A model generated the notes under the pieces. That model saw only the letters and a list, made by a program, of their open reading frames with translations, was not told the DNA's origin and did no database searches. A stretch of 64,000 nucleotides of DNA, taken from NCBI RefSeq assembly GCF_030384885.1, contig NZ_CP128613.1, one strand, 5' to 3'. This document shows, one piece after another, positions 20,291 through 26,538 of the stretch (positions are counted from its first letter, which is position 1; the number at the start of each line of letters is the position of its first letter). The translations under genes and the position numbers were made by a program. The stretch comes from Escherichia coli (GTDB lineage Bacteria; Pseudomonadota; Gammaproteobacteria; Enterobacterales; Enterobacteriaceae).

Positions 20291-20472
20291 AAGTTACCCT
20301 CAAACCTGCGTTAATAATCATGCGTAATTATTTGTTTCGCCTTAAAGAAATGCAAACAACTTCCGGCAAAAAAGTGATACAAGATCGATAACATAGCGTT
20401 GAAGAAAAGGATTTGATAATCCGCAAAATTTGCACAACACTGCCTGTAATACTTCCTGAACCAGAGACGATC

Positions 20473-22259: not shown

Positions 22260-22763
22260 ATGTCACAAACCGTTCATTTCCAGGGCAACCCGGTTACAGT
22301 CGCCAATTCCATCCCGCAGGCGGGTAGCAAAGCGCAGACTTTTACTCTCGTGGCAAAAGATCTGTCTGACGTCACCCTCGGTCAGTTTGCGGGTAAACGC
22401 AAAGTGCTGAACATTTTCCCGAGTATTGATACCGGTGTTTGCGCCGCATCAGTACGTAAGTTTAACCAACTGGCAACCGAGATCGACAACACCGTTGTGC
22501 TGTGTATCTCTGCCGATCTGCCGTTCGCCCAGTCTCGTTTCTGCGGCGCAGAAGGTCTGAACAACGTTATCACCCTCTCCACTTTCCGTAACGCTGAATT
22601 CCTGCAAGCCTACGGTGTGGCAATTGCTGATGGCCCACTGAAAGGTCTGGCAGCGCGTGCCGTTGTGGTTATCGATGAAAATGACAATGTGATTTTCAGC
22701 CAGCTGGTTGATGAAATCACCACCGAGCCGGATTACGAAGCAGCTCTGGCTGTACTGCGCTAA
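22260..22763 (+). CDS. tpx: thiol peroxidase Tpx
   Basis: 167-aa ORF with the peroxidatic Cys motif (IDTGVCA). Confidence 0.95.
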
Positions 22764-22770
22764 ACAACTG

Positions 22771-22810
22771 TGCCGTTCACTGAATCACCACCGGTGAACG
22801 GCAGTTTTTG
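22771..22810 (+). terminator. tpx rho-independent terminator
   Basis: TGCCGTTCAC, a 13-nt loop, then GTGAACGGCA and GTTTTTG. Confidence 0.8.
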
Positions 22811-22907
22811 ATCTACCAGTCCCATTATTTTCCAGAGTTCCTGCCACTATTCCCCCTAACCGTTGTGCATTAAGATTGCTCTTTGCCATTATTGGCCCAG
22901 CGGAGTG

Positions 22908-24959
22908 ATGACTATTATGGATGATAAACAAATTACGGTCTGGCTTAAACACAATTGCTGTTCAACGGACATTCCTGCCATTGCCGAGGCACTAACGAAC
23001 CATGCAGAATGGCTTTTAGAGCTAGCGCCAGATCCTATTGAACAAGGTTGTTCATGTTTACCGCCGACAGCTGCAGCCGGTATTTTTCTTGGCGCAGCGG
23101 CGATGGTTCACTGCGGCGAGGCTAGTGGTGCAGAAACCTGGCTCGAAGCAGCCATTACTGATTACCATTTCTTTAATCCAAATGGATATAGTTCATGGAG
23201 AGGCAGTACGCCTGTTTTTACAGCATTATCGCGTTACCCGGCATTAAGAATGGTGTTATTTAACGCCGCTTGCGCAATGGAAGACTGGAATAAAGCATCC
23301 GCTGTTCTTGAATCGCTTTTCCATGCCAGCGATGTAACGGAAGATAACCCTGTCGCCCCCAATTTTACCCCTTATGCGCTGAAAGCGTTTATCGCGGATT
23401 ACCACCCGTTAGGGCCTGCTTATTATGATGAAACCTGGTTGCTGGCAAAACAAGCGTGGTTAATTAATGCGGGCGTTCTGGATGAGCGAACCTGTAATAC
23501 CTGGAAGCAATATACCCGCCATTTGCGCCATTTGATCCATAATGCACAGTTTTCCGATGCGATCTCTTTTGTACGCAGTAAAAAAGAACCATTAAATCAT
23601 ATCCATACCTACTCAGACTTTTATCTCTATGCGATTGGTTTATTTTCTTCTACTGATCAGCTAAGTGAAGCGCTAACCTGGGTAAAACAATTAATCCGCA
23701 ACAATGATGGTCATTTCCATGATCTTTTCGTTTCAACTGGCGCAAAGCGCCGAATAAAGCCTGAACTTAGTACCTTGCTGAATAATCTCTTGTACAGCGC
23801 AGAGTTTCAGGCGTTGCAGGATAAATATCTCACCGTCGGACATGATGTTGTGCATTCTGGTCCCTTCATGTCACTTTATGAAAAGGTTCTTGGCGGTAAG
23901 TCCCGAAAGCGCTGCGCGATTAGTCGAAAATTAATCTCACCCGGCGAAGCGGTTTATGAATATCGTCAGCTGGATAGTGTGGAATATATTGCAGCGAAAG
24001 CGGCCTTTCAGACATCTGAGCTAAATAATATCGCCCACCGGCATCATAATGATAGTTATCAGTGGCATGAATTTGCCGTCCAATGGCCTCGTCGGGGTTC
24101 ACTTTCTCACCCAGATATTGCCCGTTATTTGTTTGAGCGCCAGGAAGGAAAATGCTTTGATGCCGCAGAGTTTATACAACTGATTGCGGAACCGTTTGTC
24201 TTTCCGATGCGTTTCATATGGGTTGCCGGGTTGTCCTTTGAATTACATCAGTATCCGGATGCCTATTTCGTAAATGACAATATGGCGGGTGAATTTGTTA
24301 ATCTCTGCTGGATGGCTATGAAATGCGGACATGCTGGCGACATTTTCAAACAACTGGCCCACGAGCCGCATGACGTTGCTGACCCTATTTACGCCATGCT
24401 CGCCACGTTTGACCGCGCTGATTGCCGTAGCGCCGCCGCCGCGCACTTTGGACAACCGGAACTACCGGAAATAATGGCACTGGCTTTCAGTTCGAGGTTA
24501 TCGCTCGACAGCGTCCTTACCATCGCTGAGTTTGGTAAAAATCAGCCGCGATTTTCACATGCGCTAGCAACGGCCCTCCTGCGTTACAACCTGCACATCT
24601 ACTCAAACTATATGCCGCAGGTTAACTGGTACCTTCAGGGGCTGGAACACTATGCTTTGGCAAAAGGCGGTCAACTTTTAAATTTCTTTGTGCATATTCC
24701 AGAACAAATTCCCGTTCTGGCGACCATGCTGGAACATGGCGTATTAGTGCGTGGGATCGGTGAAGGTGCCTATGATGGTTATGATAATTCAGCAAATTCA
24801 TTTCATCATGCCGCCGTGATGCACTGCCTCACGCACGCGCCGGAAAAAGTCCGCTACTGGATGGAAACACCCTGGATTCAGAACTATTTAGTGAATGCGC
24901 CGCTGCGTCAAACGGCGCGCCATGTGGAAGCCTGGCATAAAAAGTTTGGCATCAAATGA
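22908..24959 (+). CDS. hypothetical 683-aa protein of unknown function; absent from the tpx-tyrR interval of K-12 as I recall it
   Basis: Long uninterrupted ORF (track 22863-24959). The likely start is ATG 22908 (MTIMDDKQ) or 22917, with GGAG upstream. There are no Walker, HExxH, integrase or transposase motifs. It is predicted cytoplasmic and rich in W/Y/H/F, with N-terminal Cys pairs. It contains rare AGA, ATA and CTA codons. Confidence 0.7.
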   Translation: MTIMDDKQITVWLKHNCCSTDIPAIAEALTNHAEWLLELAPDPIEQGCSCLPPTAAAGIFLGAAAMVHCGEASGAETWLEAAITDYHFFNPNGYSSWRGSTPVFTALSRYPALRMVLFNAACAMEDWNKASAVLESLFHASDVTEDNPVAPNFTPYALKAFIADYHPLGPAYYDETWLLAKQAWLINAGVLDERTCNTWKQYTRHLRHLIHNAQFSDAISFVRSKKEPLNHIHTYSDFYLYAIGLFSSTDQLSEALTWVKQLIRNNDGHFHDLFVSTGAKRRIKPELSTLLNNLLYSAEFQALQDKYLTVGHDVVHSGPFMSLYEKVLGGKSRKRCAISRKLISPGEAVYEYRQLDSVEYIAAKAAFQTSELNNIAHRHHNDSYQWHEFAVQWPRRGSLSHPDIARYLFERQEGKCFDAAEFIQLIAEPFVFPMRFIWVAGLSFELHQYPDAYFVNDNMAGEFVNLCWMAMKCGHAGDIFKQLAHEPHDVADPIYAMLATFDRADCRSAAAAHFGQPELPEIMALAFSSRLSLDSVLTIAEFGKNQPRFSHALATALLRYNLHIYSNYMPQVNWYLQGLEHYALAKGGQLLNFFVHIPEQIPVLATMLEHGVLVRGIGEGAYDGYDNSANSFHHAAVMHCLTHAPEKVRYWMETPWIQNYLVNAPLRQTARHVEAWHKKFGIK

Positions 24960-24967
24960 ACGTTGCC

Positions 24968-24988
24968 GCTGCGCCTGAACGGCGCAGC
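24968..24988. terminator. stem-loop between the inserted ORF and the tyrR 3' end (probably the tyrR-side terminator hairpin)
   Basis: GCTGCGCC, loop TGAAC, then GGCGCAGC. There is no strong T-run on either side. Confidence 0.4.
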
Positions 24989-24996
24989 CAGCACAA

Positions 24997-26538
24997 TCAC
25001 TCTTCGCTTTTCTTCTGGTTTAAGCCATATTCCCGCAACTTATTGGCAATCGCGGTATGCGAAACGCCGAGACGTTTTGCCAGTTTGCGCGTGCTGGGAT
25101 AATTGCGATAAAGCTGAGTTAATACCGAGCGTTCAAAACGGCTGGTGATTTCGTCCAGCGAACCTTCCATCGCATCTTCGCCCACGGCTACCGTTGCGGC
25201 GTCATAATCCGGTAACAAAATATCCTGTGGACGTAGCTCATAACCGTCCAGTTGTGTCAGTGCGCGATAAATAGCGTTCTTTAACTGCCGCACATTTCCC
25301 GGCCACGCATAACGCGTAAGTACAGTATTCAGGTCAGCGGCCAGTTTCGGACGCGGCACGCCCTGCTCGTCGGCAAAGCGGGCGACGAACAGCTCGGTTA
25401 ACGGCATGATGTCCTGCGGACAGTCACGTAGCGGCGGCAGATTGAGCGTCAACACGTTCAGACGATAATAGAGATCTTCACGGAAAACGCCTTTTTGCAC
25501 CAGTTCGACTAAATTCTTCTGCGTAGCGCAAATAACCCTTACATCGACATGCACTTCATGATCTTCACCAACTCGACGGAAAGTACCATCATTAAGGAAA
25601 CGCAGTAATTTCGCCTGCATCCTTGGCGACATCTCGCCTATCTCATCTAACAGCACCGAACCACCGTTCGCCTGCTCAAAGAACCCTTTTTTACCTTCCG
25701 GAGCATGACCAAACAGTTCACTCTCGACCGCATCTTCCGGTATAGACGCGCAGTTCAGCGCCAGGTAAGGTTTGCCCGCTCGTGGGCTTGCCTGATGGCA
25801 GGCGTAGGCAAAGAGATCTTTACCTGTACCGGTGTCACCCGTAATCAGCAACGGCGCGCTTAGCATCGCCAGTTTCTGCGCCTGTTCGACAACATGCTTC
25901 ATTTTCGGGCTGACGGCGACAATTTGACTGAAGGCACTGACGTCCTGTGCAGCGACATTCTGCAACTGACGGCCCATACGAATCGTCGAGCGCAACATCA
26001 CCACCGCACCGGTCAGAACGTGTTGATCATTTTCATCCTGAAGATAAACAGGCGTAATCTCCATCAGGAAATTCTGCCCATTAATAACGACATGCTCGTT
26101 ATGCGAGTCTTGCGGTTCGCTTTCCAGCCAGCGTAAAAAATTAAAGCCGTTAATTAATTGCGCGGCGGTATGGTTGCGCAGGCGATCCAATTTTTGCCCA
26201 AAAAGCTGACAGCTCGCCGGGTTCGCCATATCCACTTTGCTTTTCATATCAACAGAAAGCACAGGCTCAGGCAACGCCTCCAGTAACGCGCTCAACGCCA
26301 GATGCTCACGTTCGGAAGGCATCCACGGAACAGTGCGCACATCGGTAACACCTGCAATACGGCGTATTTCGGCCATCAGACTGCTGAAACTTTCAAATTC
26401 CAGTTCGGCAAAATTGAGGTAGATTCGCCCAATGGGGTCAATCTCAATACCGCGTAAATCAATGCCTCTTAGCACGAGTAGATCGAGTAATTCGCGGGTC
26501 AGACCGAGTCGGTCTTCACAAAAGACTTCCAGACGCAT
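24997..26538 (-). CDS. tyrR: transcriptional regulator TyrR (sigma54-interaction-type AAA+ domain)
   Basis: 513-aa product starting MRLEVFCEDRLGLTRELLDLL. It has Walker A GDTGTGKD and a C-terminal HTH. The track ORF starts 9 codons upstream. Confidence 0.95.
   Translation of the reverse strand: MRLEVFCEDRLGLTRELLDLLVLRGIDLRGIEIDPIGRIYLNFAELEFESFSSLMAEIRRIAGVTDVRTVPWMPSEREHLALSALLEALPEPVLSVDMKSKVDMANPASCQLFGQKLDRLRNHTAAQLINGFNFLRWLESEPQDSHNEHVVINGQNFLMEITPVYLQDENDQHVLTGAVVMLRSTIRMGRQLQNVAAQDVSAFSQIVAVSPKMKHVVEQAQKLAMLSAPLLITGDTGTGKDLFAYACHQASPRAGKPYLALNCASIPEDAVESELFGHAPEGKKGFFEQANGGSVLLDEIGEMSPRMQAKLLRFLNDGTFRRVGEDHEVHVDVRVICATQKNLVELVQKGVFREDLYYRLNVLTLNLPPLRDCPQDIMPLTELFVARFADEQGVPRPKLAADLNTVLTRYAWPGNVRQLKNAIYRALTQLDGYELRPQDILLPDYDAATVAVGEDAMEGSLDEITSRFERSVLTQLYRNYPSTRKLAKRLGVSHTAIANKLREYGLNQKKSEE

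What the first reader, a model, noticed from the sequence alone, without database searches (positions are those of the whole stretch)
22764..24996. A 2.2-kb single-gene insertion between the convergent tpx and tyrR genes encodes a 683-698-aa protein with no recognisable family
In K-12, tyrR and tpx are consecutive genes (b1323, b1324) with only a short convergent terminator region between them. Here 2233 bp separate the two stop codons. That interval holds one long intact ORF (22908/22917-24959) and carries no integrase, transposase or tRNA. The product is cytoplasmic, with no signal peptide or TM helices. It has N-terminal Cys pairs (NCC, GCSC, HCGE) and many W/Y/F/H residues, suggesting a helical repeat or toroid fold. 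An R-x6-H stretch (RHLRHLIH) and a CGHAGD segment are present. No Walker, HExxH, HNH or PD-(D/E)xK motif is visible. It uses rare AGA, ATA and CTA codons, consistent with horizontal acquisition. The space between convergent genes is a typical landing spot for single-gene accessory or defence cargo.
Basis: partly seen in the sequence, partly recalled or inferred. Interest (0 to 1): 0.8.

Follow-up and report, generated by a model that had tools for sequence, protein, structure and literature searches.

The report
Orphan helical-repeat gene between tpx and tyrR
A rare, horizontally acquired 680-residue E. coli gene between tpx and tyrR belongs to an undescribed family of non-enzymatic helical-repeat proteins whose relatives often sit among genes that protect bacteria from rival bacteria's toxins, so it is most likely a stand-alone toxin-immunity protein, although this is untested.

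Summary
A single intact ORF fills the 2,233 bp between tpx and tyrR; the conserved start at 22917 gives 22917-24959 and 680 aa. Only 32 of 5,426 complete E. coli genomes carry it, always at the same junctions and always annotated as hypothetical. It replaces K-12's 52-bp terminator region rather than inserting cleanly, and it has no mobile-element signature.

It is under purifying selection (dN/dS about 0.3 within E. coli, 0.12-0.17 between genera). About a third of carriers have frameshifted or IS600-disrupted copies.

No Pfam, NCBIfam, PADLOC, PHROG or PDB family matches. An exhaustive profile search found only 119 scattered relatives. A confident AlphaFold model (pLDDT 89.7) shows TPR-like helical repeats plus a C-terminal half with no solved counterpart. 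Conserved residues are mostly structural, with no catalytic motif.

In 5 of 13 independent lineages, relatives sit beside established immunity-type families (TsiV/DUF3396, SUKH/SMI1-KNR4, Tli4_C with ankyrin) or in arrays of Sel1, TPR and DUF1963 genes.

Best reading, with about 40% confidence: a new family of large orphan immunity-type toxin binders. No family member was found next to a toxin, so this remains inference. It is not a known defence system.

The parts
22260..22763 (+). tpx (thiol peroxidase). The replacement changes its C-terminus to ...AVLR* (167 aa); K-12 has ...AVLKA* (168 aa).
   Evidence: All E. coli carriers have the same 504-nt tpx.
22759..24996 (.). Replacement segment of ~2.24 kb that stands in for K-12's ~52 bp (the last two tpx codons plus the bidirectional terminator hairpin). 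GC is 47%.
   Evidence: Homology to K-12 stops at 22757/8 and resumes at 24997/9. There are no flanking repeats. The junctions are identical in all alleles examined.
22771..22809 (+). New intrinsic terminator for tpx carried by the insert: a 12-bp stem (22771-22782 / 22792-22803) followed by a UUUUU run.
   Evidence: (-20.6 kcal/mol, z = -4.3) and the sequence. The simple terminator scan missed it because the loop is 9 nt.
22902..22905 (+). GGAG Shine-Dalgarno-like element 11 nt upstream of ATG 22917. No consensus promoter was found in 22764-22916.
   Evidence: Sequence. Promoter scan was negative for this stretch.
22917..24959 (+). CDS of the 680-aa orphan-family protein, annotated 'hypothetical protein' (WP_106907512-like).
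22917..23486 (+). Residues 1-190: N-terminal helical (TPR-like) extension. It is absent from the short family members and is replaced by ankyrin repeats in two others.
23487..23831 (+). Residues 191-305: TPR/PPR-like helical hairpins at the start of the conserved core. This is the fastest-evolving segment (36-43% identity between genera).
23832..24296 (+). Residues 306-460: mixed beta/alpha module containing the highly conserved basic motif LGGKxRKRCAISRKLISPGE (C333, G343, R350).
24297..24956 (+). Residues 461-680: the most conserved, all-helical C-terminal domain (KCG471, DPIYAMLATFDR, RYNLH560LYSNY, W571, W648). No solved structural counterpart was found.
24968..24988 (.). GC-rich hairpin between the ORF stop and the tyrR stop, with an 8-bp stem and no U-run on either strand. 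It is a possible shared transcript-end structure.
   Evidence: z = -3.3 on the plus strand, -4.4 on the minus strand.
24997..26538 (-). tyrR, which is unusually divergent from K-12 (about 95.6% identity over its 3' 1.1 kb).

Best explanation
The gene encodes a cytoplasmic, non-enzymatic helical-repeat protein of a previously undescribed, sparsely distributed family. Its most likely role is that of an 'orphan' immunity-type protein.

**Proposed mechanism (inferred, not shown).** The protein would bind and neutralise a cytoplasm-acting toxin domain injected by competing bacteria through T6SS, Rhs or CDI-type polymorphic toxin systems, without the carrier needing the toxin itself. The variable N-terminal and central TPR-like repeats (ankyrin repeats in some relatives) would provide target recognition. 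The conserved beta module and C-terminal helical domain would form the family-specific core.

**Shown.**
- The gene is real, rare and foreign in composition.
- It was acquired once, by replacement of the tpx-tyrR terminator region.
- It is under purifying but relaxed selection.
- It is TPR-like in fold and lacks any recognisable catalytic motif.
- Its relatives recur beside known immunity families.

**Inferred.** Toxin binding, and the immunity function itself.
For: 1. **A real gene.** dN/dS is 0.32 between E. coli allele classes (dS 0.13) and 0.12-0.17 between genera.
2. **An accessory, strain-variable, decaying gene, as is typical of conflict genes.** It occurs in 32 of 5,426 genomes. By annotation, 22 copies are intact, 6 are split and 4 are IS600-disrupted. 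L013 carries tandem diverged paralogs.
3. **A binder rather than an enzyme.**
   - The AF2 model is confident (pLDDT 89.7, pTM 0.90).
   - Family-wide conserved positions are mostly G, P, W, Y, L and F.
   - No Walker A, HExxH or CxxC motif is present.
4. **Modularity.** The N-terminal repeats are dispensable or swapped for ankyrin repeats. The central repeat segment evolves fastest.
5. **Genomic context in 13 independent lineages.**
   - The Salmonella homolog lies in the yegQ-STM2135 islet next to a TsiV/PF11876 gene. That locus has been published as a putative orphan T6SS/CDI immunity islet (PMC7400221).
   - The Klebsiella-type hrpA islet holds Tli4_C, ankyrin and RHS-repeat paralogs.
   - L025 holds two Sel1 genes, a TPR gene and a DUF1963 gene.
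   - L026 holds SUKH_6 and DKNYY genes.
   - The Sinorhizobium conjugative plasmid array holds two SMI1/KNR4, two DUF1963 and one DUF3396 gene.
   - DUF3396/TsiV proteins are experimentally shown T6SS immunity proteins (PMC9635880).
   - SUKH, Ank, HEAT and LRR arrays are the defined 'heterogeneous polyimmunity loci' (PMC3482391).
6. **No link to phage or to known defence systems**.
Against: - No family member was found immediately downstream of a recognisable toxin, which is the standard in-silico criterion for an immunity gene (0 of 13 contexts).
- The gene upstream of the Salmonella homolog is not an Rhs, PAAR or toxin gene.
- At 680 aa it is several times larger than typical immunity proteins.
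- Four lineages, including this E. coli locus, have the gene alone among housekeeping genes.
- Two lineages pair it with an RCC1-repeat protein, which is unexplained.
- There is no sequence match to any Pfam Imm or SUKH family.
- The association rests on about 13 sampled contexts, and only precomputed Pfam labels were available for most neighbours.
- A few polar residues (D189, C333, R350, R504, H560) are conserved in 75-90% of members. Their spatial arrangement could not be checked, so a cryptic active site is not excluded.
Confidence: 0.4

Rival explanations
1. It is a single-gene anti-phage (or anti-plasmid) defence protein. The TPR-like repeats would sense a phage component, and the novel C-terminal domain would execute or block a step of infection.
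For: - It is a rare single-gene accessory insertion with foreign composition, fast evolution and frequent decay.
- TPR sensors are common in defence proteins (general knowledge).
- One distant member lies a few genes from a type I R-M HsdR gene.
Against: - No PADLOC model matches the family core. The only hits fall on fused ankyrin repeats.
- No nuclease, NADase, protease, ATPase or TM effector module is seen by sequence or fold.
- Neighbours are interbacterial-immunity families, not defence systems.
- It is absent from phage, prophage and viral collections.
Confidence: 0.15
2. It is an accessory scaffold, adaptor or chaperone-like protein with a physiological rather than conflict role. It would organise or regulate a host protein complex and would sit near immunity genes only because both accumulate in variable islets.
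For: - It is a purely helical-repeat scaffold with structural conservation only.
- It stands alone among housekeeping genes in four lineages, including E. coli.
- The neighbouring DUF1963/TYPP proteins have themselves been proposed to be protein-interaction or chaperone-like (PMC4275035).
Against: - The distribution is extremely patchy: 119 representatives at 50% identity among 1.84 billion proteins.
- It shows horizontal acquisition, tandem diversified paralogs and repeated pseudogenisation.
- The same immunity families recur beside it in unrelated phyla, which is hard to explain by chance co-location.
Confidence: 0.25
3. It is itself a toxin or effector with a novel catalytic C-terminal domain, delivered to or acting on other cells.
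For: - The C-terminal ~370 residues have no solved structural counterpart.
- A few conserved polar residues exist (C333, H560, D189).
- Some relatives lie in islets with RHS-repeat fragments.
Against: - There is no PAAR, Rhs-core, VgrG, MIX, CdiA or signal-peptide trafficking module.
- No small downstream immunity gene exists at the E. coli, malM-ubiC or other solo loci.
- Polyimmunity loci characteristically lack toxin genes (PMC3482391).
- Conservation is mostly structural.
Confidence: 0.05
4. In E. coli it is a functionless remnant on its way to loss. It hitch-hiked on a divergent recombined tpx-tyrR haplotype.
For: - About one third of carriers have disrupted copies.
- dN/dS is higher within E. 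coli (0.32) than between genera.
- No consensus promoter was found upstream.
- The flanking region is a divergent haplotype.
Against: - dN/dS of 0.32 with dS of 0.13 still indicates sustained purifying selection over long divergence.
- 22 of 32 copies are annotated as intact.
- The C-terminal domain is strongly constrained (ω = 0.19).
Confidence: 0.1

Closest known systems
Repeat-type immunity proteins of heterogeneous polyimmunity loci (Imm-ank, HEAT, LRR and SUKH arrays; Zhang et al. 2012, PMC3482391)
   Same: - It is a cytoplasmic, non-catalytic repeat scaffold.
- Its presence varies between strains.
- Paralogs occur in tandem and have diverged.
- It co-locates with SUKH, ankyrin and TsiV-family genes in several phyla.
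- Some family members are fused to ankyrin repeats.
   Different: - It matches no defined Imm, SUKH or Pfam family.
- At 680 aa it carries a large conserved core that has no solved structural counterpart in its C-terminal half.
- It was never seen next to a toxin in the contexts sampled.
- In E. coli it is a lone gene, not part of an array.
TsiV / DUF3396 (PF11876), immunity proteins for T6SS VRR-Nuc effectors (PMC9635880)
   Same: It is a neighbour of family members in Salmonella (L003) and on a Sinorhizobium plasmid (L029). It also occurs as orphan copies away from any effector.
   Different: There is no sequence or architectural similarity. TsiV is about 300 aa and has a demonstrated cognate toxin, whereas this family has none known.
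Salmonella yegQ-locus islets (SAIDI-1 / 'Paratyphi C islet'; Barretto & Fowler 2020, PMC7400221)
   Same: The Salmonella homolog P0004 (56% identical) lies between yegQ and the STM2135-like DUF4034 gene. This is the same hotspot described as a mosaic of orphan T6SS/CDI immunity genes.
   Different: - The E. coli gene sits at a different locus (tpx-tyrR) and is alone.
- I could not establish whether P0004 corresponds to one of the 24 genes analysed in that paper, for example the weak-TPR gene SPC1576.
- The paper assigns no function to such a gene.
[not shown]
   Different: - Sequence identity is only 13%.
- The match covers about a quarter of the protein.
- The Pfam TPR models are not reached (14.2 bits against a 25-bit cut-off).
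- BepA is a periplasmic protease, and this protein has no protease domain.

Membership tests
Polymorphic-toxin / T6SS immunity proteins | Encoded immediately downstream of (or paired with) a cognate toxin or effector gene in at least some genomes | tested here: not met
   None of the 13 independent contexts shows it. The upstream gene in Salmonella is not an Rhs, PAAR or toxin gene.
Polymorphic-toxin / T6SS immunity proteins | Occurs in heterogeneous polyimmunity or orphan-immunity arrays together with established immunity families | tested here: met
   Five lineages qualify: Salmonella (TsiV); the Klebsiella-type islet (Tli4_C, Ank); L025 (Sel1, TPR, DUF1963); L026 (SUKH_6); and the Sinorhizobium plasmid (two SMI1/KNR4, two DUF1963, one DUF3396). 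This is not met at the E. coli locus itself.
Polymorphic-toxin / T6SS immunity proteins | Sequence membership in a described immunity family (Pfam Imm1-Imm7x, SUKH, SuFu, TsiV, Tli and others) | tested here: not met
   Pfam scans of the protein and of 44 family members found only Ank and weak TPR/PPR hits. NCBIfam found none.
Polymorphic-toxin / T6SS immunity proteins | Binds and neutralises a specific toxin and protects prey in competition | not testable with these tools
   This requires competition and co-expression experiments.
TPR superfamily | Tandem helix-turn-helix hairpins forming a solenoid (structural criterion) | tested here: met
   [not shown]
TPR superfamily | Reaches a Pfam TPR model's gathering score | tested here: not met
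   TPR_19 scores E = 0.057 and 14.2 bits against a 25-bit cut-off.
Known anti-phage defence systems (PADLOC-DB v2) | HMM match of the protein or its family core to a defence or candidate-defence model | tested here: not met
   The query has no hits. Family-wide, the only hits (PDC-M72A, Ankyrin) fall on residues 3-178 of two ankyrin-fusion members.
Mobile-element cargo (IS, integron, integrative island) | Integrase or transposase, att or terminal repeats, or a tRNA target at the borders | tested here: not met
   There is no such ORF, no terminal repeats and no tRNA. The element is absent from plasmids of Enterobacteriaceae and from phages. IS600 in some alleles is a secondary insertion into the gene.

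The most novel reading that the evidence does not exclude
The family represents a new structural class of single-protein conflict module. A variable repeat sensor (TPR or ankyrin) would be fused to a conserved ~370-residue domain of novel fold. This module would neutralise an incoming toxin or invader by a mechanism unlike any described immunity or defence protein, for example by sequestering or re-folding a target rather than simply capping an active site. It could then act as a portable, toxin-independent shield that spreads by homologous recombination of core-gene flanks.
Probability: 0.2. Interest if true: 0.7.

Novelty: new variant of a known kind. Interest (0 to 1): 0.45.

Why it matters
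If the inference holds, this is an undescribed and unusually large family of orphan immunity proteins. It would widen the catalogue of genes that let gut Enterobacteriaceae survive contact-dependent attack, and it would point to an as-yet-unidentified toxin. It would also show that such a gene can be fixed as a lone insertion between core genes, without any mobile element, and then spread by flank recombination.

Even if the function is different, the C-terminal half has no counterpart in solved structures and the family has no annotation anywhere. It is therefore a clean target for structural and functional characterisation.

The practical importance is limited by its rarity (about 0.6% of complete E. 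coli genomes) and by the absence of any phenotype so far.

Tried and rejected
1. **Direct family assignment.** Pfam, NCBIfam, PADLOC, PHROGs and PDB sequence searches of the protein returned nothing.
2. **Word-indexed homolog search.** It returned only 8-11 close clusters, even when seeded with the deep alignment. One of the three capped searches was effectively wasted.
3. **First AF2 run.** With 9 sequences it gave a poor model (pLDDT 60).
4. **AFDB50 fold search.** The library is not installed.
5. **Immunity-position test in Salmonella.** I asked whether the upstream 223-aa gene is an Rhs-core or toxin fragment. It has no NCBIfam or Pfam hit and no Rhs motif, so this was rejected.
6. **Pattern scans of metagenome and viral collections.** The close alignment found only one E. 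coli-like locus and no viral locus.
7. **PADLOC PDC-M72A hit.** The match lies on fused ankyrin repeats, not on the family core, so this was rejected.
8. **Hidden paralogs next to distant members (L026, L027).** None were found.
9. **Literature.** No paper mentions the RefSeq protein accessions or this tpx-tyrR insertion. The text I read does not establish DUF1963 or DKNYY as immunity families, so I did not count them as strong evidence.
10. **Mobile-element origin.** This was rejected.
11. **Model coordinates.** They are not exposed, so the spatial clustering of D189, C333 and H560 could not be checked.
Full report
**1. Observation**

The sequence is as described. tpx (22260-22763, +) and tyrR (24997-26538, -) converge on a 2,233-bp interval that holds one long ORF ending at 24959.

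PGAP annotates the CDS from ATG 22917 in the near-identical strain 2013C-4282. All homologs start with M-[DN]-[DN]-[KE] aligned to that ATG. The product is therefore 680 aa, not 683-698.

In K-12 the two stop codons are 43 bp apart. Aligning the junctions shows a replacement, not a clean insertion:
- Homology ends after ...GCTGTACTG (22757/8), which lies inside the last codons of tpx.
- Homology resumes at about 24997-24999.
- About 52 bp of K-12 (two codons plus the shared terminator hairpin) are exchanged for about 2.24 kb.
- Tpx consequently ends ...AVLR* rather than ...AVLKA*.

The insert brings its own strong tpx terminator: a 12-bp stem plus a U-run at 22771-22809 (z = -4.3). A second hairpin lies between the ORF and tyrR stop codons.

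The interval has no tRNA, no integrase or transposase and no terminal direct or inverted repeats.

GC is 47.2% and GC3 is 44.9%, against 52-60% GC3 in neighbouring genes. The protein has no TM segment or signal peptide.

**2. Population genetics in E. coli**

Only 32 of 5,426 complete E. coli genomes carry the segment. It is always chromosomal, always at tpx-tyrR, and always annotated 'hypothetical protein'.

By annotation, the copies break down as follows:

| State | Copies |
|---|---|
| Single intact CDS | 22 |
| Split | 6 |
| Interrupted by IS600 | 4 |

The alleles form two classes, at >=96.6% and about 94% identity to the window, and they share the same junctions. This indicates one ancestral acquisition followed by long divergence or spread through flank recombination.

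dN/dS is 0.32 between the allele classes (dS 0.13) and 0.12-0.17 between genera. The gene therefore encodes a protein under purifying, somewhat relaxed selection.

The surrounding haplotype is itself unusually divergent from K-12, at 90-97% identity in 1-kb bins to the right of the insert.

**3. Family**

Pfam, NCBIfam, PADLOC, PHROGs and PDB sequence searches give nothing beyond a sub-threshold TPR_19 hit.

The word-indexed search of 5.8 billion proteins found only 8 clusters (49-90% identity, 676-695 aa) from E. coli, Salmonella enterica and unnamed assemblies.

An exhaustive HMM search of 1.84 billion representatives found 119 proteins at E <= 1e-3, of which 48 reach E <= 1e-30. They fall into three groups:
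- Full-length forms of about 680-720 aa.
- Short forms of about 480-540 aa that lack the first ~190 residues.
- Two forms in which ankyrin repeats replace that N-terminal part.

Named sources include Xanthobacteraceae, Rhizobium, Sinorhizobium, Rhodobacterales and a planctomycete, and every one is labelled 'hypothetical'.

The family is absent from phage and viral collections. Among the species-representative genomes, the close-family pattern scan found it only in Klebsiella sp. MISC125.

**4. Structure**

With the 44-sequence alignment, AlphaFold gives a confident model (pLDDT 89.7, pTM 0.90). It has four parts:
- Helical repeats over residues 1-305.
- A small beta-containing module (317-360 and 434-445) carrying the basic motif LGGKxRKRCAISRKLISPGE.
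- Intervening helices between those strands.
- An all-helical C-terminal domain over residues 459-677.

Residues conserved in >=75% of the deep family are mostly G, P, W, Y, L and F. The polar exceptions are D189, C333, R350, R504 and H560.

There is no Walker A, HExxH or CxxC motif. The central repeats (191-305) evolve fastest and the C-terminal domain slowest, and no region has ω > 1.

Together this looks like a binding scaffold with a variable recognition part, not an enzyme.

**5. Context**

I examined 13 independent lineages.

| Context type | Lineages | Calls |
|---|---|---|
| Alone among housekeeping genes | E. coli tpx-tyrR; an enterobacterial malM-ubiC site; L022; a planctomycete | 7, 24, 66, 107 |
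| Tandem paralogs (one split, one intact) | L013 | 25, 50, 51 |
| Beside an RCC1-repeat protein (unexplained) | L023/L024; L027 | 67, 88 |
| DKNYY gene directly upstream (function unknown) | L030 | 106 |
| Beside immunity-type families | five lineages, listed below | see below |

The five lineages with immunity-type neighbours are:
- **Salmonella.** The homolog lies in the yegQ-STM2135 islet with a TsiV/PF11876 gene, bracketed by ISAs1 and IS1 fragments. This hotspot was described by Barretto & Fowler as a mosaic of orphan T6SS/CDI immunity genes (PMC7400221).
- **Klebsiella-type islet after hrpA.** It holds Tli4_C, ankyrin and three RHS-repeat paralogs.
- **L025.** It holds two Sel1 genes, a TPR gene and a DUF1963 gene.
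- **L026.** It holds SUKH_6 and DKNYY genes.
- **Sinorhizobium conjugative plasmid.** Its array holds two SMI1/KNR4, two DUF1963 and one DUF3396 gene.

Two points from the literature bear on this. DUF3396/TsiV proteins are experimentally validated T6SS immunity proteins (PMC9635880). SUKH, Ank, HEAT and LRR arrays define 'heterogeneous polyimmunity loci' (PMC3482391).

These families make up a tiny fraction of any genome. As a rough inference that I did not compute, their recurrence beside this family in Gamma- and Alphaproteobacteria and in metagenomic lineages is unlikely to be chance.

No family member was seen immediately downstream of a recognisable toxin. My one specific test of that arrangement, the gene upstream of the Salmonella homolog, was negative.

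**6. Interpretation**

The best-supported reading, at about 0.4 confidence, is a new family of large, cytoplasmic, repeat-based orphan immunity-type proteins. They would bind a toxin delivered by competitors. In E. coli the gene was captured as a lone insertion between two core genes.

The rivals are:
- An anti-phage defence protein (0.15). There is no effector module, no PADLOC link to the core and no phage association.
- A non-conflict accessory scaffold (0.25).
- A toxin (0.05).
- A decaying remnant (0.1).

**7. Novelty and score**

The protein family is undescribed and its C-terminal half has no solved structural counterpart. The functional kind it most resembles, orphan immunity genes in polyimmunity loci, is well known.

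It departs from that kind in three ways: its size, its architecture, and the lack of any known toxin partner. I therefore rate it 'new variant of a known kind'.

Interest is 0.45. It is a clean, tractable unknown with a testable hypothesis, but it is rare, it has no phenotype, and its function rests on guilt by association.

Noticed in passing
window 25000-47242 (tyrR to the puuE side): In 1-kb bins this ~22-kb stretch is only 90-97% identical to K-12, with a low of 90.2% at 34-35 kb. The left side is 95-99% identical. This is a strongly divergent haplotype or recombination tract adjoining the insert, and tyrR itself is 95.6% identical.
   Followed up: partly
window ~20348-20377 (mpaA / mppA junction): The window lacks K-12's ymjC-ymjD-ycjY-pgrR block (~2.4 kb) between mpaA and mppA. 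The closest strain, 2013C-4282, also has mppA adjacent to mpaA.
   Followed up: partly
window ~17480 (ynaI / ynaJ): K-12's IS5F insertion between ynaI and ynaJ is absent here.
   Followed up: no
window 22755-22763: The Tpx C-terminus is altered by the replacement: ...AVLR*, 167 aa, against ...AVLKA*, 168 aa, in K-12. All carriers share this Tpx variant (WP_000084388.1).
   Followed up: yes
L007 15321-17971 and L016 15187-16912 (Klebsiella-type islet after hrpA): L007 holds three tandem paralogs of 279-289 aa with weak RHS_repeat matches, next to ankyrin and truncated Tli4_C genes. This looks like an uncharacterised interbacterial-conflict islet.
   Followed up: partly
L023 5845-7872 and L027 3368-5242: Two distant family members, one of them ankyrin-fused and the other a short form, each lie directly beside an RCC1/WD40_RLD-repeat protein of 624-675 aa, on opposite sides. 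This is a possible conserved partner in that sub-lineage and is unexplained.
   Followed up: no
L013 3305-7484: Two family paralogs sit in tandem. A split copy (358 + 344 aa, closest to Salmonella P0003) lies immediately upstream of the intact P0008.
   Followed up: yes
L003 6838-7104 and 10393-10605 (Salmonella yegQ islet): ISAs1/H-repeat-like transposase fragments bracket the pair formed by an AT-rich 223-aa gene and the 688-aa homolog. This suggests the pair was moved as a unit into the islet.
   Followed up: no
L030 7792-8928 and L026 3008-3808: DKNYY-family (PF13644) genes recur next to family members in two unrelated lineages. The papers searched gave no functional information on DKNYY.
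   Followed up: partly
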